Shown piece by piece: positions 37,563 to 52,414 of a stretch of DNA of 64,000 bases; the first letter of the stretch is position 1, and each line of letters starts with the position of its first letter. The notes under the pieces were generated by a model. That model was not told where the DNA came from and did not search any database. It saw nothing but the letters and a program-made list of their open reading frames with translations. Source of the stretch: an uncultured cyanobacterium (GTDB taxonomy: Bacteria; Cyanobacteriota; Cyanobacteriia; PCC-9006; JAAUQQ01); the NCBI GenBank assembly GCA_963718615.1, contig OY970368.1:3808001-3872000 (forward strand), written 5' to 3'. The position numbers were made by a program, and so were the translations under genes.

Positions 37563-37786
37563 TCAGACCTCCACCTCTTATAGCAGCAAAATTATAAGCG
37601 ATTTACTTTGAGGCTGGGGTAGTCAACTTAACAGCACTTGATTCTGATTGCCTCACAGATAGCTCTCGTCTGCGCCTTCACCAGTAACCGAAGCCGCATA
37701 ACGGCCCCGTTCACCCGCCGCAGAAGCCTTGCGGTCTTAACGGCCAACTTAATACGGTCGGCGTGCCACGCAATTATGGGGGGACA

Positions 37787-38079
37787 GGGGAGAAGAAACA
37801 GGAAGAGACGACTATGCATTGGACGACACAGAGGATGTCTACTAACATACCGAATCGCTCATCCCTCTCCCATGCGCGAATTTGACAGAAGCGCATAAAG
37901 TCAAAAAAGGAGAGCATCTGCCAGCTTGTCGGGACGACTATGCAACGTTAGTCAGAAGATGACTACTAACCTATCGAATTGCCCGTCCAGCCAATCCAAT
38001 CGCATACCAACGAATCCTCAGGGAGCAGGGAAAGACCCTTGACCTAATCTCTTCGCTTTGCGTGGGTGGCAGACTCTCC
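37787..38079 (+). ncRNA. Predicted bridge/seek RNA with two target-binding loops and one donor-binding loop (copy 1)
   Basis: Repeated module GACGACTA-guide-hairpin-CTAAC at 37807 and 37933; closing stems GGGAGA/TCTCCC and GGAGAG..TCTGCCA/TGGCAGACTCTCC; donor guide CTCAGGG 38017-38023. Confidence 0.7.
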
Positions 38080-38108
38080 ATCCAACAAAATACCCCCAAT
38101 CTAACACA

Positions 38109-38543
38109 ATGAAACTCAACCTCAGCACAACCGTTTATGCTGCCTATATCGGCATTGATTGGGCAGACCGCAAACATGATATTGCTCTCTACGATTGCCA
38201 GAATGAGATCTGGGCACAATCCACTATTCAGGCCACCCCTCAGGCGGAGGAAATTGGCAAGCAACGTTGGGTCCATTGGCGTTGGTCTTGTCCTATCTTT
38301 CTGAGGCAAATTTTTGTCGAGTGGGTTACCCATGCTCGGTCTCGTTCGGTCTGGTCACAGGCATTTTATCAACAACAACGACTGGCGGGTAAATCCCATC
38401 AAAAGGCTATTCGTGCTTTGGCATATAAAGGGGGTCAGATTCTTTGGCGATGTTGGCAGGATAGGACTCCTTATGATGAGGAAAAGTATCTCGCTGCTCT
38501 CCGGCGCAAAAACTCTCCTTTGGTCGCTCTTTTACCGGATTAG
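38109..38543 (+). pseudogene. IS110 transposase with large in-frame internal deletion (144 aa)
   Basis: N-terminal YIGIDWADRKHD (first DEDD Asp) fused to C-terminal W.HWR.SC..FLRQ...A.RALA.K...ILWRCW. Confidence 0.88.
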
Positions 38544-38746
38544 TTCTCTATCTTGTTGCTCGATTGAACTGCTTTAGGTTTTGAACCAATCGAATACAAA
38601 AAATACGCAGATGGCTCTGATAGACCAGTTCGGCTGAGACTCAAAACTGACTATTAGGGGGTTTGCGCTGGCTTCAATTCGCTCAGATATTACATCAGAG
38701 TTATTTTTGATATTCTCTATTGACCCCGTCCGCCTCAAGGCCTATG

Positions 38747-39862
38747 TTAGGCACGGGGCTGTTGTTGTGTGGTGCAGTGTATGCCACCACCGCCAGCAGC
38801 GATCGCATCAATATTTAGCTGGACAACATCGCGATCAGGGAATAGATCTTGCAAAGTCGCTTTTGCTTTTTCATCAGCGATGACATTGCCAAACTCTGGC
38901 GCGATGACAGCGCCATTGACCACATAGAAATTGATATAACCTGCGGCAAAATCAGCACTTTTAAACTTGGGACGAATGCTGGTGGGACTTTCAAGGACAG
39001 CCACTTCTAGTTTATGACCATCCGCATCCGTCTCAGACCGCAGAATCTCTAGGTGCTTTTGAGTAACAGCATGGTCGAACGAGGCTGGATCGGGATCATA
39101 TCCAGCAATGACAGTCCCTGGACGCGCAAAGCGGGAATAAAAGTCAGTATGACCATCTGTAATATCTTGCCCTCGGATACCAGGTAACCAAATGATCTTG
39201 CGGAGTCCCAGAAGTGGCTTGAGTAGTGTTTCACACTCAGCTTTAGCCATTCCAGGATTACGATTTTCGTTGAGGACACAGCTTTCGGTGATGATTGCTG
39301 TCCCCTTACCATCCACTTCAATCCCACCACCTTCTAGGACTAACTTAGTATTAATAGCCTGAACACTAGATTTCTGAATGACAAATTCAGCGACTTTTGC
39401 ATCATGGTCATGATCTTGCTTCTGACCCCAACCATTGAAGTTAAAATCAATTCCACCTAAATATCCACGACTATCTTTCACAAAAACAGGACCAGTATCA
39501 CGTATCCACAGGTCATCTAAAGCCGAAACAACCATATCTACAGATGAACCGCATTTTCGGACAGCTATCTCGTAATCTTCTTGTCGAACTAGCATGGATA
39601 CAGGCTCATAGCGAGCGATCGCTTTAGCAATAGTTGCTAGATTGTTTTGCACTTCAGAAAGCAACTTTTGTCCCCAAATGGCACGACTTGCACCAAAAGC
39701 CATCCAAGTACGATCATGAGGCTCTGATTCGTCAGGCATCAACCAAGTCGTTTCCTGTGTTCCCACGGCTTCAGAGTCACTACAACCCAAAACATTGTGC
39801 ACGATCATCGCTCCTGAACAACCTGCCATAAATTGAATCAGTGATCGTCGATTCATGATCAA
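38747..39862 (-). CDS. Agmatine/peptidylarginine deiminase family with Tat-like signal; gene cassette
   Basis: WIRDTGP, LEGG, TDGHTD, GYINF, GGGIHCTTQQQP; MNRRSLIQF N-terminus; stop codon inside attC R''. Confidence 0.93.
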   Translation of the reverse strand: MIMNRRSLIQFMAGCSGAMIVHNVLGCSDSEAVGTQETTWLMPDESEPHDRTWMAFGASRAIWGQKLLSEVQNNLATIAKAIARYEPVSMLVRQEDYEIAVRKCGSSVDMVVSALDDLWIRDTGPVFVKDSRGYLGGIDFNFNGWGQKQDHDHDAKVAEFVIQKSSVQAINTKLVLEGGGIEVDGKGTAIITESCVLNENRNPGMAKAECETLLKPLLGLRKIIWLPGIRGQDITDGHTDFYSRFARPGTVIAGYDPDPASFDHAVTQKHLEILRSETDADGHKLEVAVLESPTSIRPKFKSADFAAGYINFYVVNGAVIAPEFGNVIADEKAKATLQDLFPDRDVVQLNIDAIAAGGGGIHCTTQQQPRA

Positions 39863-44896: not shown

Positions 44897-45019
44897 CAGT
44901 CAATGTTACCCTCTGTCGGGAGTTAAGCCTAACGTTGCCCCTCACCCGCCGCCAATCACACCTGCATCAAACCGATCAATTTTCGGCGGTCGGTGTGCAT
45001 GGGCGTTTATGGGGGGACG

Positions 45020-45313
45020 GGGGAGAAGAAACAGGAAGAGACGACTATGCATTGGACGACACAGAGGATGTCTACTAACATACCGAATCGCTCATCCCTC
45101 TCCCATTCGCGAATTTGACAGAACCGCATAAAGTCAAGAAAGGAGAGAATCTGCCAGCTAGTCGGGACGACTATGCAGCGCCAGTCAGAAGATGACTACT
45201 AACATATCGAATCGCCCGTCCAGCCAATCCAATCGCGTACCGACGAATCCTCAGGGAGTAGGGAAAGACTCTTTCCATAATCTCTTCGCTTTGCGAGCGG
45301 GGGCAGACTCTCC
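45020..45313 (+). ncRNA. Predicted bridge/seek RNA with two target-binding loops and one donor-binding loop (copy 2)
   Basis: Guides TGCATTG/CTAACAT (45048, 45075), TGCAGCG/CTAACAT (45174, 45199), donor guides CTCAGGG/CCATAAT (45250, 45275). Confidence 0.72.
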
Positions 45314-45342
45314 ATCCAACAAAACACCCTCAATCTAGCACA

Positions 45343-45777
45343 ATGAAACTCAACCTCAGCACAACCGTTTATGCTGCCTATATCGGCATTGATTGGGCAG
45401 ACCGCAAACATGATATTGCTCTCTACGATTGCCAGAATGAGATCTGGGCACAATCCACTATTCAGGCCACCCCTCAGGCGGAGGAAATTGGCAAGCAACG
45501 TTGGGTCCATTGGCGTTGGTCTTGTCCTATCTTTCTGAGGCAAATTTTTGTCGAGTGGGTTACCCATGCTCGGTCTCGTTCGGTCTGGTCACAGGCATTT
45601 TATCAACAACAACGACTGGCGGGTAAATCCCATCAAAAGGCTATTCGTGCTTTGGCGTATAAAGGGGGTCGGATTCTTTGGCGATGTTGGCAGGATAGGA
45701 CTCCTTATGATGAGGAAAAGTATCTCGCTGCTCTCCGGCGCAAAAACTCTCCTTTGGTCGCTCTTTTACCGGATTAG
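45343..45777 (+). pseudogene. IS110 transposase with the same in-frame internal deletion as copy 1
   Basis: 144 aa, one visible substitution (Q/R) versus copy 1. Confidence 0.88.
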
Positions 45778-46363
45778 TTCTCTATCTTGTTGCTCGATTG
45801 AACTGCTTTAGGTTTTGAACCAATCGAATACGAAAAATACGAAGATGGCTCTGATAGCTCAGTTCGGCTGATACTCAAAACTGACTATAAGGGGGTTTGC
45901 GCTGGCTTCAATTCGCTCGGATATTACATCAGAGTTATGTTGTATCTTCTCTATTGACCCCGTCCGGCTCAGGGCCTATGTTAGGCACTACATCTACAAA
46001 CAACTGACAACATAAGTTAGCCAAGATCTGAAAGCATAGGAGTTCATCATAAGCAGGGGGTTGAGCATGCAGCCAGACTACTTTTTTCTACTTGAAACCT
46101 ATTTTATTTGACTAGCTTCAATTTTCCCTGCTTCTGTCAATTGCCATGCTGACTTTGAACCCCTAAGTTCTGGTACTCTTTCCAGAAGCCCATTTGTTAG
46201 ACGACAATAGCATTGGCGGCTGCTCGACATTTCCTGGCGGGAGTTGTCGCGAAAGCGTGGCTTGGATCGTGAGACAGACGTGAGACTTTGACAGCTCACT
46301 GGCGTGGCGATCGACAAAAAAAGACACTCATAGGGTCCCCCTGGAAAGAAAGGACTCTAACGA

Positions 46364-48154
46364 GTGTCGAGAGTAATAATGTATCAACAGCGAGTGTACA
46401 TGAATGCAAAGGAGCATGGCCTGTCGCAGCAAGATGCGGCAGCGGTGGCGGAATTTTCGGTGCGAACCGCGCAACGAATGGATGCCAACGAGTGGCAGCA
46501 GGGGAGTGGAGAGGGCACCGGGGTGCGGACCCGGCCAGATCCACTCAACGGTCTTTGGGAAGCCGAACTAGAGGCGATGCTGCGAGCTGAGCCAAGACTG
46601 AAACCGACGACGTTATTTGAGCATTTGCAGGACAAATATCCGGGTCAATATCCGCAAGTGCTCAGGACGCTTCAGCGGCGAGTGAGAACCTGGAAAGCAC
46701 TGTATGGTCCAGCTCCCGAGGTGATGTTTGAGCTGCGTCACGAGCCGGGGGTGCAAGGATTTTCCGACTTCACCGAACTCAAAGGGACGGTGGTGACGAT
46801 AAATGGAAAGCCCTATGAGCACTTGATTTATCACTACCGCTTGGGCTACAGCGGCTGGTCCTACGCGGAGTTAATCGAGGGGGGTGAAAGCTTTGTCGCC
46901 CTATCCGAAGGATTGCAGAATGCCCTGTTTGCCTGCGGCGGGGCTCCAAAGCAGCATCGCACCGATAGCCTGAGTGCGGCCTATCGAAATCTGGGTGGGA
47001 AGAAGACCAAACCGCTGACGCGCTTGTATGACGACCTGTGTGAGCACTATCGGTTGCAACCGACGCGAAACAACCGGGGAATCGCCCACGAGAACGGTTC
47101 TATTGAAGGCCCCCACGGTCATCTGAAGAACCGCATTGTCCAAGCGATGTACCTGCGCGGCAGCACCGACTTCGCTAGCGTCAGCGACTATCAAGACCTG
47201 CTCAATGACTGTGTGGCCAAGCTCAATGCCCAGCATCAGGATAAGTATGAGCATGAGAAAGCGCATCTCCAGGCGTTGCCCAAATACCGGGCTGCGGACT
47301 ACGAACTCCTCACCGCCAAGGTGAGCAGCAACAGCACGATTGATATCCGCTGCATGCTCTACAGCGTGCCGTCTCGCTTAATTGGCCGGTCCCTGGAAGT
47401 GCATCTGCACCACAACCGCCTGATGGGCTACCTCGAAGGCCATGAAGTGTTCAGGTTGAAACGGATTCGTTCTACTGACAAGGACAAGCGGCGCGCCCGC
47501 TCGGTGGACTATCACCATGTCATCGAAGGGTTGCGCAAAAAGCCCTTGGCCTTCCTCCACAGCACCTGGCGAGAGGACCTCCTGCCCAATGAGCGCTATC
47601 ACCAACTCTGGAAACAGCTCCAGGCTGGCTTTGAGCTTGATTCTGCCGCCGTGCTCATGGTCGAAGCCCTCTATATTGCGGCGACCCAAAACAAGGAAGC
47701 GGCGGTCGCTGACTACCTCTTCCCAGAGATTGAGGCCAAAACCCTCACCCTCTCAAGGCTCAGACTCCATTTTCAGTTGCTCACCAAACTCGAATTCCCC
47801 ACCGTGAATGTCCAACAACATGACCTCAACGACTACGATGCCCTTCTGTTCACCCACAGCAGCGTCATCCCAGATGCAGAACCAGAGCTCGTCTCAACCG
47901 GAGCTGAGCCCTTACCAAAGCCTCAGCGCTCAGCTCAAGCACCTGCGCTTATCCCATATGCTCAACCACTGGGAGACCTTGGAGCAGCAAGCCATGCGAG
48001 AGACCTGGTCCTACGCGCAATTTCTCTTGGCCCTGTGCCAACTCGAAACAGACCGCCGCAAGGCTTTGCGCCTCCAAAGAGCCATCACCGAAGCTCAACT
48101 GCCCAACGCCAAAACGGTTTCCAATTTCGATTGGACACACCTGCCCCTGGTTAA
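46364..48154 (+). CDS. istA: IS21 transposase IstA
   Basis: SDFT, HRTDSL, HENGSIE DDE triad; YSVPSRLIG. Confidence 0.95.
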   Translation: MSRVIMYQQRVYMNAKEHGLSQQDAAAVAEFSVRTAQRMDANEWQQGSGEGTGVRTRPDPLNGLWEAELEAMLRAEPRLKPTTLFEHLQDKYPGQYPQVLRTLQRRVRTWKALYGPAPEVMFELRHEPGVQGFSDFTELKGTVVTINGKPYEHLIYHYRLGYSGWSYAELIEGGESFVALSEGLQNALFACGGAPKQHRTDSLSAAYRNLGGKKTKPLTRLYDDLCEHYRLQPTRNNRGIAHENGSIEGPHGHLKNRIVQAMYLRGSTDFASVSDYQDLLNDCVAKLNAQHQDKYEHEKAHLQALPKYRAADYELLTAKVSSNSTIDIRCMLYSVPSRLIGRSLEVHLHHNRLMGYLEGHEVFRLKRIRSTDKDKRRARSVDYHHVIEGLRKKPLAFLHSTWREDLLPNERYHQLWKQLQAGFELDSAAVLMVEALYIAATQNKEAAVADYLFPEIEAKTLTLSRLRLHFQLLTKLEFPTVNVQQHDLNDYDALLFTHSSVIPDAEPELVSTGAEPLPKPQRSAQAPALIPYAQPLGDLGAASHARDLVLRAISLGPVPTRNRPPQGFAPPKSHHRSSTAQRQNGFQFRLDTPAPG

Positions 48155-48722
48155 CCCTCTCCCGATTCAAAAACTCGCCACTGAACCCCAGTGGATTGAT
48201 GACGCCCAAAACTGTCTCTTCTTCGGACCTTCTGGGGTCGGCAAAACCCATCTGGCCGCTGGCATCGCTCGTGCCGCCCTGGAAGCGGGCAAGCGCGTCA
48301 AATTCTTCTGTGCCACCACCCTGGTGCAGTATCTCCAAAAAGAAAAGCTTCATCTCCAGCTTCAGCCTGCCCTGAAAAAGCTCGACCGCTTTGACCTCGT
48401 GATCATTGATGACCTCGGCTATGTCCAAAAATCCGAGGCAGAAACCTCCGTTCTCTTTGAACTCATTGCCTATCGCTATGAGCGCAAAAGCATCATGGTC
48501 ACTGCCAATCAGCCGTTCAGTGAGTGGAACTCCATCTTTGGTGATTCCATGATGACCGTCGCCGCCGTTGACCGCCTCATTCACCATGCGGTCATTCTCG
48601 AAATCAAGGCGGACAGTTTTCGTAAACGCTCCGCTCACCAGCGCTCTGAGAACTTGAAGGCACTCCCGGCAAAATCCTCTGAATCTGACTCCCAAACATC
48701 GACACACCAGAAGCGATCTTAG
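47808..48722 (+). CDS. istB: IS21 helper ATPase IstB
   Basis: GPSGVGKTHLA, IIDDLGY, DRLIHHA. Confidence 0.96.
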   Translation: MSNNMTSTTTMPFCSPTAASSQMQNQSSSQPELSPYQSLSAQLKHLRLSHMLNHWETLEQQAMRETWSYAQFLLALCQLETDRRKALRLQRAITEAQLPNAKTVSNFDWTHLPLVNPLPIQKLATEPQWIDDAQNCLFFGPSGVGKTHLAAGIARAALEAGKRVKFFCATTLVQYLQKEKLHLQLQPALKKLDRFDLVIIDDLGYVQKSEAETSVLFELIAYRYERKSIMVTANQPFSEWNSIFGDSMMTVAAVDRLIHHAVILEIKADSFRKRSAHQRSENLKALPAKSSESDSQTSTHQKRS

Positions 48723-50283
48723 ATTGTCGTCTTGACCTGAGATTGCCGCTTCTCATTTCCTTTTGCCAATTCAGTGGGCTCCCCGCCTTCTAATTGTCGC
48801 GACAGGCAAATGTCTTGACACTTGATACCCATTATCTCTAAGTTTATAAAATTCGACCTTAACCAGATTCTCGGATCTGATGCCTGTAATGTCTCTTGCT
48901 TGTTGGTTAGTAATTGTTAGATTTGATCGAAGAAAACTGAGAATCGCCTCTGCTGGTACTGCAAGAGGTATATGAGGAAGGGTAACTTTGACATAGTTTC
49001 CATCCTCAGTGATCTCAGGCGATTTCAGTCCCCACTCTTTCATCTTTTGAAAGGTAGTGTTGAGCCCTTCGCCTAAATCCTTGTTCGGAGCCTCTTTGTA
49101 TCTATTAAGAGTTCTAACAATTTTGGCATTTCTTGCATAACGTGCATCCAATATGTTTTCAATAGTAACGTATCCGGGAAGACGTCCTGGACTTAGAATC
49201 TCAATTCTATTGTTATATATTAAAATTCGAGTATCATCTGATATTGAATAATCTCGATGAATGATTGAATTCACAATTACTTCCCATACTGCTTCGGGAG
49301 GATAATTAAGGTTCTTAAGACCGTCGGAAGTCCAGACTTTCACGGATGACATTATGCTTTCGACGGCAGTGACAGTATCCTTGATCAGACTGTAGAGCGG
49401 ACCTTCAACCGAAACCTGCTCTGCTAAATGATCGCGCTCAGGATCATCTTCTTTTGTTTCATACCTGGTAATTTTTACTGCACATTTTCTAGGCACAACT
49501 GCACTAGGACAGGGATGAAATAATAGTGCTGCTGCTACCCTCACTTCCCAGGTTTTGTAATCGAATAAGTTTTGATTTATGCAAAATTCTAAAGGATCAG
49601 TTTTAGGGGAATAATCACCTAAAAAGGAGGTCAACTCCTCAGACTCCGCAACTTGCTCAGCAGGAATATCCTTGATTAACTGATCTTCAAAGGATGTAGC
49701 ACCCTTTGCAAATGACAGTTGCGTAATTCTTTCTGGATCTTTGACAGGTAGGGATTGAGCACCCTGTCTTTGATAGACTGTTCCATCAGCAGTTTTGTGG
49801 ACTTCGGAACTTTTCTCAATCATTATCCTTAAGATATATCCGGATTTGCCTTCACACCTCAATATTTCATATCTCAAATCCAATGGAGGGGTGATGTCGA
49901 AAATTGCCTGCAAATGGCTGTTCAATTCTTCGATTTTTGATACCCCTTGCCATCTTCTTCCTGGATCAGTCTCATCTTCATCATCTGCGATACCAATAAT
50001 AAGCTCTCCGCCATCTGCATTTGCAAAAGCTACGGCTGCCTTTTGTACTTTCGCTCCCTTAATTTGAGCAGCTTTTCTGTCAAAAAAATGAGATTCTTCT
50101 CTTATTGAGAATTCATCAGCTTCAAATGAGGTAATTGTTTTGGTATTCATGTTTCCCGTGCTGAATTCAATTGTAATTACTAAAATTTTATTCGAATATT
50201 TCTTCGTTTTATGAGCTTCCTTGTTACATCTTGAAGATTAGCAGATAGCTTTTTGCAGATTCTGTATGTCTATGAACGAAGCT

Positions 50284-50376
50284 GCCTAACGTTCCCGCTA
50301 ACCGGACGCAGATAACCTTTGCATCTCACCGATAACTTTAACTTGACTTCGTTACGGTTCAGCGGGGTTGTTATGG
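50284..50376 (-). other. Intact attC site
   Basis: Minus strand: R'' CCATAAC-AACCC-L'' CGCTGAAC ... L' GTTAGCG-GGAAC-R' GTTAGGC, 12 nt after the upstream stop. Confidence 0.9.
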
Positions 50377-51333: not shown

Positions 51334-51563
51334 TTATTCTCATGCACGATGCCTGATAACTCCCTCCTCCGGGTATTCTCAAGCGCCAACGCCGTATAAT
51401 CCCCAGTCTCAGCCAGTTATCCAGGCAATCATGCTGGATAACATACCTAGTTGGGTATTATCAGGCAAAGGTGCATGATAACAACCCATTTCTAGGCGTT
51501 ATCCCGGCATCGCTGCCGGATAACATCCCTACACAGGTATTATCAGGCATGTCTCAGTATAAT
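51334..51563. repeat. attI-side array of ~6 palindromic sites, 41-bp period (82-bp higher-order unit)
   Basis: TTATCCAGGC-N6-GCTGGATAA, TTATCAGGC-N6-GCATGATAA, TTATCCCGGC-N6-GCCGGATAA and degenerate copies; units start 51350, 51432, 51514. Confidence 0.8.
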
Positions 51564-51644: not shown

Positions 51645-52414
51645 ATGCAAACCCAGCCCCCCAAGCTTCTAGATCAAGTCCGTGTGGCCCTACGACTCAA
51701 GCACTATTCCTGCAAAACAGAGCAAACTTACGTTCAGTGGATTCGGCGTTACATTCTGTTTCACAACAAGCGCCATCCCAAGGACATGGGCGTGACCGAA
51801 GTGGAAGCCTTCTTGACCCATCTCGCGGTTCAAGAACGGGTTGCTGCCTGCACGCAAAACGTTGCCTTTAGCGCCTTGCTCTTCCTCTATCGTGAAATTC
51901 TTCAACAACCCTTCGAAAATGTTCAGGCTCTCCGAGCAAAGCCTTCGCGCTATCTACCTACGGTACTGACTCCCGAAGAAGTCCGCCAAATCATGCGACA
52001 TCTTTCCGGTGAATGTCGCCTCGTGATTCAAATTCTCTACGGAAGTGGATTGCGGATTAGTGAAGCACTTCGACTCAGAGTTAAAGACGTAGATTTTGGT
52101 CAGCACCAGATTGTTGTGCGAGATTCTAAGGGGCAAAAGGGCCGGGTAACACCGCTGCCCGATCGCATCATCAAGCCTCGTGCCCTTCAGGATGCCGTTG
52201 GTTCTGCTGGTATTCACAAGAAAGTCAGTTGCCACACCTTCCGCCACAGCTTCGCCACCCACCTGCTGCATTGATTTGTTTTTATGGGGCATACGACATC
52301 CGCACCGTCCAAGAACTGTTGGGCCACAAAGATGTTAAGACAACCATGATCTACACCCATGTCCTCAATCGCGGCGGACGAGGCGATCGCAGCCCGCTAG
52401 ACCATAATTTTTAG
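51645..52414 (+). pseudogene. intI: Integron integrase with internal deletion and frameshift
   Basis: [48 protein letters not shown]; [25 protein letters not shown]...SPLD in another frame; divergent from cassettes. Confidence 0.93.

What the first reader, a model, noticed from the sequence alone, without database searches (positions are those of the whole stretch)
45161..45290. Sequence differences between the two IS110 copies cluster in guide segments
Seen: loop 1 is identical in both copies and the 144-aa ORFs differ by about one residue, but loop 2 differs in its left guide region (TGCAACGTT vs TGCAGCGCC) and right guide (CTAACCT vs CTAACAT), and the donor right guide differs (ACCTAAT vs CCATAAT). 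The copy 2 guide TGCAGCG matches the L'' of the still-empty attC at 50358-50367 region (TTCAGCG, 6/7). Inference: guide diversification or recombination between related elements retunes the target range. Simple decay of copy 1 is an alternative.
Basis: partly seen in the sequence, partly recalled or inferred. Interest (0 to 1): 0.7.

Follow-up and report, generated by a model that had tools for sequence, protein, structure and literature searches.

The report
Guide differences between two IS110 copies
Two crippled copies of an RNA-guided jumping gene sit in integron recombination sites of a cyanobacterium; their differences mostly reflect shuffling between two versions of the element, and nothing shows they re-aim it at new sites.

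Summary
The copies are 37776-38745 and 45009-45979. Both are internally deleted, non-autonomous IS110-group elements inserted at the R''/L'' border of attC sites, in a decayed chromosomal integron whose intI remnant lies at 51666-52405.

The 5' non-coding region encodes a three-module bridge RNA: two near-duplicate target-binding-like loops and one donor loop.

"Differences cluster in guides" is only partly true. Of 38 substitutions plus one indel, 7 lie in guide segments. The strongest pattern is a mosaic:
- Copy 2's 5' region is identical to a full-length copy elsewhere in the genome (0 of 334 differences).
- The deleted ORFs of copy 1 and copy 2 are near-identical (2 of 435).
- Both differ from the full-length ORF by about 6%.

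Within the bridge-RNA region, guides are hit more than stems (7/52 vs 1/59, p=0.025) but not more than linkers (p=0.25).

Copy 1's new left guide (ACGTTA) fits the genome's 29 attC sites no better than the ancestral GCGCCA. Recombination is supported.

The most interesting by-product is evidence that both tandem loops act as alternative target guides.

The parts
45009..45979 (+). Copy 2: non-autonomous IS110-group element (ATGGGG...GGGCCTAT), 971 bp
   Evidence: Repeat families D1/D2; alignment A1; ends set by comparing 5 own-genome junctions and 12 empty sites
37776..38745 (+). Copy 1: same element with a divergent non-coding lineage ('type 1'), 970 bp
45038..45093 (+). Copy 2 module 1 (target-binding loop a). 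Left guide loop UAUGCA+UUGGAC at 45046-45057; right guide ACUAACAUAC at 45074-45083. Identical in copy 1 (37805-37860)
   Evidence: Folds; 26-sequence alignment and pair counts; guide-flank permutation p=0.0004
45157..45224 (+). Copy 2 module 2 (target-binding-like loop b). Left guide loop UAUGCA+GCGCCA at 45172-45183; right guide ACUAACAUAU at 45198-45207
   Evidence: the hexamer is as variable as that of loop 1 among relatives; anchor-base covariation with flanks
37939..37950 (+). Copy 1 loop b left guide UAUGCA+ACGUUA: three transitions relative to copy 2, FL and c4717
37965..37978 (+). Copy 1 loop b right guide ACUAACCUAU: A to C at a position that is A in 24 of 24 relatives; shared with c4717
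45244..45288 (+). Copy 2 module 3 (donor-binding loop). Left donor guide UCCUCAGGGA at 45248-45257 matches the RE sequence CTCAGGG. Right donor guide UUCCAUAAUC at 45273-45282 is the reverse complement of TT+ATGG at the LE junction
38040..38049 (+). Copy 1 donor right guide variant UGACCUAAUC: three changes at positions invariant in 24 of 24 relatives of A3. Shared with c4717, c4674 and relative L045
45343..45777 (+). 144-aa ORF: an in-frame internal deletion of the 421-aa recombinase, with no Pfam domain left. The copy 1 equivalent is 38109-38543
45964..45979 (+). Right end with the donor left site (CCGGCTCAGGGCCTAT). Copy 1 has CTCAAGG here (38730-38745), a mismatch to its own donor left guide
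44927..45008 (+). attC site 2, left part; the remaining GTTAGGC is at 45980-45986. Occupied by copy 2
   Evidence: Model R1 hit of 56.3 bits
37693..37775 (+). attC site 1, left part; the remaining GTTAGGC is at 38746-38752. Occupied by copy 1
   Evidence: R1 hit of 35.9 bits
50284..50376 (+). Empty attC site 3, ending ...TTCA-GCGGGG-TT|GTTATGG
   Evidence: 80.1 bits
51666..52405 (+). Degraded integron integrase gene, matching TIGR02249 in three pieces; cassettes read leftwards on the minus strand

Best explanation
The two window copies are non-autonomous, internally deleted derivatives of one IS110-group insertion sequence. An intact copy with a 421-aa DEDD/Tnp_20 recombinase lies elsewhere in the genome.

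The element inserts between the R'' box and the L'' arm of integron attC hairpins. It is guided by a bridge RNA encoded in its 334-nt left end. That RNA has three internal-loop modules: two near-duplicate target-type loops and one donor loop.
- Each target-type loop has a 5' side UAU(G/C)CA+N6, which equals the top strand of the left flank. Its 3' side, ACUAACAU, is complementary to TGTTAG of the R'' box.
- The donor loop has CUCAGGG, matching the right end, and CCAUAA, complementary to TT+ATGG at the left end.

The differences between the copies are mainly a recombination mosaic of two diverged non-coding lineages. Copy 2 carries the left end of the intact copy. Copy 1 carries a 'type 1' left end that it shares with other deleted copies. 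Both share the same deleted ORF.

On top of that, the type 1 lineage has accumulated changes in loop b and in the donor right guide. This lineage no longer needs its own RNA if it is mobilised in trans. Those changes do not give a measurably better fit to any attC site in the genome.

Shown: the anatomy, the mosaic, the position of the differences, and the attC context. Inferred: mobilisation in trans, and relaxed constraint as the cause of the guide changes.
For: Family and autonomy:
- The full-length copy has PF01548 and PF02371. The 144-aa ORF has no domain.
- The same deletion junction occurs in copy 1, copy 2 and c4717.

Mosaic:
- 5' NCR: copy 2 vs FL 0/334; copy 1 vs copy 2 23/333.
- ORF: copy 1 vs copy 2 2/435; copy 2 vs FL 26/435.
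- 11 of copy 1's NCR alleles are shared with c4717.

Structure:
- 32 pairs are 97.6% paired, against 37-52% when the 3' partners are slid.
- 11 pairs show compensatory changes, and 0 of 500 shuffles reach the observed values.

Guides:
- The N6 hexamers have 0.93-0.95 bits of entropy, while the right guides and donor guides have about 0.
- Loop a guide against left flank: observed 2.88 matches vs null 2.27, p=0.0004, n=25.

attC context:
- A complete IntI scores 444 bits and a degraded intI lies in the window.
- The hairpin alignment has 10 of 18 pairs with compensatory changes.
- There are 29 sites in the genome, 7 of them occupied.
- 33 of 48 relatives' loci have an attC-model hit at the left junction.

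Retuning test: negative.

Polarity:
- The copy 1 alleles at the loop b right guide and the donor right guide are absent from 24 of 24 relatives in A3.
- Their DNA partners are unchanged in copy 1: GTTAG in the flank and ATGG at the LE.
Against: - 7 of the 10 changes derived in the copy 1 lineage fall in 52 of 282 nt (binomial p=5e-4 per site, 0.08 if each triplet is one event). This is more than uniform relaxed drift predicts.
- Stems carry only 1 of 59.
- The donor right-guide variant GACCUAAU recurs identically in L045, a single-loop relative with 66% protein identity. That suggests a tolerated or functional alternative state, not damage.
- At least three type 1 copies exist at different sites, so the lineage kept moving after these changes.
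- No empty orthologous sites or dated phylogeny are available, so the direction of the recombination is not determined.
- Polarity was assigned by majority among relatives, which is rough.
Confidence: 0.6

Rival explanations
1. Adaptive guide diversification. Substitutions in the loop b left guide, the loop b right guide and the donor right guide were selected because they redirect the element to other attC variants.
For: - The N6 hexamers are the only hypervariable positions inside otherwise invariant loops across 26 elements.
- Natural reprogramming of IS110/IS1111 guides is documented (passages of PMC11187229).
- 7 of 10 copy 1-lineage changes are in guide segments.
- The G to A change creates GCAACG, a guide prefix used by several relatives (L022, L023, L038, L056, L066).
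- The genome has two empty attCs with TGCAACG.
- The donor right-guide variant recurs in L045.
Against: - ACGTTA matches the 29 attC sites no better than GCGCCA: both reach at best 4/6 with 5 sites at 4/6 or better, mean 2.0 vs 2.48, ranks 38 and 32 of 64.
- Copy 1's own site (ACGCAA) fits both alleles equally, 4/6 each.
- The right-guide and donor-guide changes hit positions invariant in 24 of 24 relatives, and their DNA partners have not changed in copy 1.
- The copy cannot make a recombinase.
- All three left-guide changes are GC-to-AT transitions.
- In another genome with 8 copies, only 1 of 5 polymorphic sites in 324 nt is in a guide.
Confidence: 0.2
2. Simple neutral decay of copy 1. It is a dead element and its differences are random mutations with no meaning.
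For: - The element is non-autonomous.
- Copy 1-specific changes are mostly GC-to-AT transitions.
- Its donor left site also carries a change that mismatches its own guide.
- Guides are not hit more than linkers (p=0.25).
- Two triplet clusters arise by chance in 6% of simulations.
Against: - Many 'copy 1' alleles are shared with c4717 and c4674, so they predate copy 1 and belong to a lineage that transposed.
- 6 of the 18 differences are derived in the copy 2/FL lineage instead.
- The ORF is near-identical while both ends differ by 6-7%. Uniform decay cannot produce that pattern.
- The identical triple change recurs in L045.
Confidence: 0.2

Closest known systems
IS621 / IS110-group bridge RNA (Durrant et al. 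2024, PMC11208160; Hiraizumi et al. 2024, PMC11208158)
   Same: - A DEDD plus Tnp_20 recombinase.
- A long left-end NCR upstream of the gene that encodes a structured RNA with internal loops.
- The 5' side of a loop equals the top strand of the left flank, so it pairs with the bottom strand. [quoted passage not shown] This matches the passages read.
- A separate loop matches the element's own ends.
   Different: - There are three loops instead of two: two near-duplicate target-type loops in tandem.
- The left guides end 2 nt (target) or 4-5 nt (donor) short of the crossover.
- Only one base (T) is shared between the junctions, so no 2-nt core duplication is visible.
- The right guides extend into bases that belong to the recombinant junctions. 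AU pairs with the donor's AT, and AA pairs with the target's TT.
- No Rfam family matched.
IS1111-attC group (ISKpn4, ISPst6, ISPa25) and their seekRNA (Siddiquee et al. 2024, PMC11187229)
   Same: A site- and orientation-specific insertion at one end of integron attC sites, directed by an NCR-derived RNA with short matches to both strands (passages read).
   Different: - Those elements are IS1111-type: the NCR is downstream of tnp and the top-strand match comes first.
- Here the NCR is upstream and the bottom-strand match comes first, which is the IS110 type.
- The host is a cyanobacterium with chromosomal integron remnants, not clinical class 1 contexts.
- The original descriptions (Tetu & Holmes 2008; Post & Hall 2009) were not held. 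Their exact insertion point is recalled, not checked.
Natural reprogramming of guides between close IS relatives (ISEc11 vs ISXne4, PMC11187229)
   Same: Close relatives differ mainly in the target-matching bases of the RNA.
   Different: There the changed guides match a changed target. Here the changed hexamer of copy 1 has no better-matching site in the genome.
Non-autonomous deletion derivatives of insertion sequences (MITE-like elements mobilised in trans)
   Same: An in-frame internal deletion removes the catalytic domains while both ends are kept. Several copies share one deletion junction.
   Different: The derivative keeps a complete guide-RNA gene. That gene could still programme the recombinase made by the intact copy.

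Membership tests
IS110 family (DEDD recombinase IS) | Recombinase with DEDD_Tnp_IS110 (PF01548) followed by Transposase_20 (PF02371) | tested here: met
   The full-length genomic copy scores 96.2 and 59.4 bits. The window's 144-aa ORFs have no hit, so the window copies are derivatives, not autonomous members.
IS110 group (as opposed to IS1111 group) | The longer non-coding end lies upstream of tnp, and the bottom-strand match comes 5' of the top-strand match in the RNA | tested here: met
   LE is 334 nt and RE is 202 nt. The left guide equals the top strand of the flank and precedes the right guide. Criteria were taken from passages of PMC11208160 and PMC11187229.
IS110 group (as opposed to IS1111 group) | Recombinase phylogeny places it in the IS110 clade; short sub-terminal inverted repeats | not tested
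   No tree with ISfinder references was built, and STIRs were not examined.
Bridge RNA (IS621 type) | Structured RNA with internal loops flanked by stems, supported by covariation | tested here: met
   32 pairs are 97.6% paired, 11 show compensatory changes, and 0 of 500 shuffles reach the observed values.
Bridge RNA (IS621 type) | One target loop whose guides match the flanks, and one donor loop whose guides match the element ends | tested here: met
   Loop a against the left flank gives p=0.0004. CUAACA is the complement of the flank sequence TGTTAG. CUCAGGG and CCAUAA match the RE and LE. There is an additional second target-type loop.
Bridge RNA (IS621 type) | A shared 2-nt core present in target and donor and duplicated at both junctions | tested here: not met
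   Empty sites read N6-TT(T)|GTTAG, and junctions read N6-TT(T)|ATGGGG and GGGCCTAT|GTTAG. Only T is common.
Bridge RNA (IS621 type) | The RNA is made and bound by the recombinase | not testable with these tools
   No RNA run holds the stretch.
Integron attC site | Imperfect hairpin with R''/R' boxes (..AAC / GTT..), paired L''/L' arms, and extrahelical bases on one arm | tested here: met
   In 12 aligned sites, AAC/GTT is invariant, 10 of 18 pairs show compensatory changes, and there are unpaired bases in the 3' arm.
Integron attC site | Association with an integron integrase and cassette arrays | tested here: met
   TIGR02249 scores 444 bits against a cut-off of 265 at C1:948656-949594. Fragments occur in the window and near other attC clusters. 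ORF-attC units lie on the minus strand of the window. IntegronFinder itself was not available.
IS1111-attC group | IS1111-type organisation (NCR/seekRNA downstream of tnp, long STIRs) | tested here: not met
   The guide RNA region is upstream of tnp. The element works like this group but is not a member.

The most novel reading that the evidence does not exclude
This cyanobacterial IS110 lineage carries a bridge RNA with two tandem, independently evolving target-binding loops in front of one donor loop. One element can therefore address two classes of attC sites: a 'GCAU...' class through loop a and a '(G/C)CA(A/G)CG...' class through loop b. The guide changes seen in copy 1 would be variation in the second of these address fields. 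As far as my searches go, a natural dual-address bridge RNA has not been described.
Probability: 0.6. Interest if true: 0.7.

Novelty: new variant of a known kind. Interest (0 to 1): 0.45.

Why it matters
As stated, the finding is modest. Guide variation between IS110 copies is expected from published work, and here it mostly traces to recombination between element lineages.

The context matters more, for three reasons.
- An IS110-type element, not an IS1111-type one, homes to attC sites of cyanobacterial chromosomal integrons. It occupies 7 of 29 such sites in this genome, and each insertion separates the R'' box from the rest of the attC hairpin.
- Its guide RNA appears to hold two alternative target loops. 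If both work, this is a natural way to widen the target range without losing the old target. It would also be a ready-made design for multiplexed bridge recombinases.
- The junctions show no 2-nt core duplication. That is worth a mechanistic look.

Tried and rejected
Crossover models.
- I considered a TT core with targets of the form N6-TT-AGGC, and a TATG or TA core with targets N6-T-TATG-TTAG.
- Genome scans found no hairpin-bearing empty sites of either kind.
- All empty sites found that carry the hairpin read N6-TT(T)GTTA. I therefore kept the simple-insertion model, in which one T is shared.

Donor left guide. My first idea was that the loop b left guide pairs with the right end (CAGCGCC against CAGGGCC, with an A/G covariation in copy 1). 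I dropped it when the related element ISB showed the same right end with a different loop b guide.

Loop b as a target loop.
- A plain permutation of loop b guides among elements was not significant: observed 2.40 vs null 2.38, p=0.51, n=25.
- The support comes from individual pairs (L110/L111, ISBfrag/frag4836) and from anchor-base covariation: 8 of 12 sites with C at the anchor against 8 of 39 without, p=0.005.
- Related copies are not independent, so this p-value overstates.
- Single-loop against dual-loop use of site classes (4:0 vs 16:10) is my own hand count and estimate; it was not computed in a call and looks non-significant.

Searches that gave nothing.
- Orthologous empty sites in relatives: no close relative among 40 genomes.
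- More copies in five relatives' genomes: none beyond those already held.
- Rfam: 0 matches at the gathering score.
- RNA evidence: no RNA holder was listed.
- Tetu & Holmes 2008 was not held.
- Papers on two target-binding loops, or on cyanobacterial attC-targeting IS110: none in the listings or passages.

The supplements of PMC11208160 and PMC11187229 (IS catalogues and predicted RNA structures) may already list this lineage or a three-loop form.

Full report
**What is there.**
- The window holds two direct copies of a roughly 970-bp element, at 37776-38745 and 45009-45979.
- Each copy has a 334-nt 5' non-coding region, a 144-aa ORF and about 200 nt of 3' non-coding sequence.
- The ORF has no Pfam domain.
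- The genome of the window (one contig, 6.10 Mb) has 15 matches to the element. One is a full-length copy at C1:2245199-2247009.
- That copy's 421-aa product carries DEDD_Tnp_IS110 and Transposase_20.
- The 144-aa ORF is an in-frame internal deletion of this recombinase. Copy 1, copy 2 and a third copy (c4717) share the same junction.
- The window copies are therefore non-autonomous derivatives of an IS110-family element.

**Where they sit.**
- Both copies, and five other copies or fragments in the genome, are inserted at the same point of an imperfect hairpin about 90 nt long.
- Twelve empty hairpins align with invariant ..AAC and GTT.. boxes. 10 of 18 stem pairs show compensatory changes, and one arm has unpaired bases.
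- A covariance model built from them finds 29 sites in the genome, 7 of them occupied.
- The genome encodes a complete integron integrase: TIGR02249 scores 444 bits against a cut-off of 265.
- It also has several integrase fragments. One lies in the window at 51666-52405, with ORF-hairpin units reading away from it on the minus strand.
- These hairpins are attC sites, and the window is a decayed chromosomal integron.
- In cassette orientation the element lies just 3' of the R'' box, between R'' and L''.
- In 48 relatives' loci with a left junction, the attC model gave 38 hits. By my comparison with the LE coordinates, 33 loci have a hit ending at the junction, and 5 hits lie elsewhere in the loci.

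**The guide RNA.**
- The 5' region folds into three internal-loop modules.
- I aligned 26 distinct versions. They were chosen from 62 genome loci and 80 metagenome loci encoding relatives.
- On this alignment the structure is 97.6% paired, against 37-52% when the 3' partners are slid.
- 11 of 32 pairs show compensatory changes, and 0 of 500 shuffles reach the observed values.
- Modules 1 and 2 are near-duplicates: outer stem, then UAU(G/C)CA+N6, then an apical stem, then ACUAACAUAU, then the outer stem again.
- Module 3 has UyCUCAGGGA and UUCCAUAAUC around a covarying apical stem.
- The two N6 hexamers are as variable as linkers (0.93-0.95 bits). The right guides and both donor guides are essentially invariant.
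- By the published geometry, the 5' side of a loop equals the top strand of the left half-site and the 3' side is complementary to the right half-site (PMC11208160, passages). On that rule:
  - N6 with its UGCA anchor reads the left flank T(G/C)CA-N6-TT.
  - CUAACA reads TGTTAG of the R'' box.
  - CUCAGGG matches the right end.
  - CCAUAA is the complement of TT+ATGG at the left junction.
- Loop a guides match their own left flanks better than other elements' guides do: 2.88 vs 2.27 matches of 6, p=0.0004, n=25.

**The differences between the copies.**
- Their distribution is not what the title says:

| Segment | copy 1 vs copy 2 | copy 2 vs FL |
|---|---|---|
| 5' NCR | 23/333 plus one indel | 0/334 |
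| ORF | 2/435 (one residue, R110Q) | 26/435 |
| 3' NCR | 13/202 | 9/202 |

- Eleven of copy 1's 5' alleles are shared with c4717, and the donor right-guide variant is also shared with c4674.
- The genealogies of the left end and the ORF therefore disagree, so the copies are recombinants of two non-coding lineages.
- In the 282-nt RNA region the 18 differences fall as follows:

| Category | Differences / positions |
|---|---|
| Linkers | 8/110 |
| Stems | 1/59 (a G-C to G-U change) |
| Loop b hexamer | 3/6 |
| Loop b right guide | 1/10 |
| Donor right guide | 3/10 |
| Donor apical stem-loop | 2/15 |
| Loop a, donor left guide, LE terminus | 0 |

- Guides against all other positions give p=0.03, against stems p=0.025, and against linkers p=0.25.
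- I polarised the changes by the majority among 24 relatives. Ten are derived in the copy 1 lineage, 7 of them in guides. Six are derived in the copy 2/FL lineage, none in guides. Two are ambiguous.
- The 7-of-10 figure has p=5e-4 per site, but only 0.08 if each triplet is one event.

**Does the guide change retune the target?**
- I tabulated the hexamers of all 29 attC sites against the guide repertoire.
- Copy 1's ACGTTA and the ancestral GCGCCA both reach at best 4/6, each with 5 sites at 4/6 or better.
- They rank 38th and 32nd among the 64 variants at the three changed positions.
- Copy 1's own site (ACGCAA) fits both 4/6.
- The TTCAGCG at 50358-50364 is a true 6/7 match to TGCAGCG, but three other empty sites match 7/7 (sites listed).
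- The ancestral GCAGCGCCA is conserved in eight relatives' loci.
- The changes in the loop b right guide and the donor right guide hit positions invariant in 24 of 24 relatives. Their DNA partners are unchanged in copy 1.
- The three left-guide changes are all GC-to-AT transitions.
- In another genome with 8 copies, 5 sites are polymorphic in 324 nt, and one of them is in a guide hexamer.
- It is not excluded either. The donor right-guide triple change recurs identically in L045, a distant single-loop relative (1 of 67 donor loops scanned).

**Two target loops.**
- Some relatives have a single target-type loop, with the left end 62-64 nt from the loop: L038, L045, L058, L066, L125, L126, L133. 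The tandem pair is therefore a duplication.
- In most dual elements, loop a guides begin GCAU.. and loop b guides begin (G/C)CA(A/G)CG. Insertions occur in both classes of site.
- Pairs with identical guides sit in sites that match different loops:
  - L110 matches loop a 9/10 and L111 matches loop b 9/10.
  - In the window's genome, one fragment of the second element ISB matches its loop a 10/10, and another matches loop b over TCCAACGA.
- Sites with C at the anchor position hold elements with a UCCA guide in 8 of 12 cases, against 8 of 39 for other sites (p=0.005). In 7 of those 8 the UCCA guide is in loop b.
- Against this, a plain permutation of loop b guides is not significant (p=0.51), and related copies are not independent.
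- I put the odds that loop b is a working second target loop at about 0.6.
- My searches found no paper describing two target-binding loops (listings and passages).

**Mechanistic oddity.**
- Empty sites read N6-TT(T)|GTTAG. Junctions read N6-TT(T)|ATGGGG and GGGCCTAT|GTTAG.
- Only one T is shared, unlike the duplicated 2-nt core of IS621.
- The right guides continue into bases of the recombinant junctions.

**Comparison and verdict.**
- The element is an IS110-group member by domain content and RNA layout.
- It behaves like the IS1111-attC group (ISKpn4, ISPst6; PMC11187229 passages) without belonging to it.
- The finding's observations hold.
- Its headline is overstated.
- Its recombination alternative is the best-supported reading.
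- Its retuning inference fails the proposed test.

Noticed in passing
G000:C1:1920898-1921000 (in L215) and G000:C1:4836433-4836530: There are two fragments of about 100 bp of the related element ISB. Each runs from the left end through loop a only and is joined at ...CTAACATA|TGTTAG to the R'' box of an attC. This recurrent internal breakpoint lies in the DNA that encodes the right target guide, which is itself a near-palindrome with the target.
   Followed up: partly
window 45006-45010 and 45976-45986; own-genome sites: Insertion leaves no visible 2-nt core duplication. Only one T is common to target and donor at the crossover. The left guides stop 2 nt (target) or 4-5 nt (donor) short of it.
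   Followed up: partly
window 46364-48722: An IS21-family element sits within 400 bp of the right end of copy 2, inside the same cassette. It has an IstA-like 596-aa ORF with a Mu-transposase C domain, and an IstB ATPase scoring 223 bits.
   Followed up: no
window 51416-51549: Two 52-nt direct repeats lie 82 bp apart (79% identity). Each starts with the inverted repeat GTTATCC..GGATAAC. They lie between the intI remnant and the first cassette, where an attI region would be expected.
   Followed up: no
window 48771-50150 (- strand): A 459-aa ORF with Schlafen AlbA_2 and HATPase_c_4 domains occupies the cassette position between attC site 3 and attC site 2. It is a defence-like gene as an integron cassette.
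   Followed up: no
L045:1119-1150: The donor right-guide variant TGACCTAATC of copy 1, c4717 and c4674 recurs in a single-loop relative from another cyanobacterial family. Sixty-five other donor loops have CCATAATC. The variant is complementary to TTAGG of the R'' box and not to the element's ATGG.
   Followed up: partly
L113:~480-510 and L115:~560-590 (alignment A3 columns 209-233 and 274-298): Two relatives carry 25-nt insertions of similar sequence (..GC(T/G)ACGC..CGCTACGCGA..) at different places inside the bridge-RNA region. This looks like a small mobile repeat.
   Followed up: no
G023:C1, eight copies (L219-L226): One complete genome holds eight copies whose loop a hexamer has two alleles, TTGAGC in 6 copies and GTGAGC in 2. 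Three copies share one identical left flank that does not look like the usual attC arm.
   Followed up: partly
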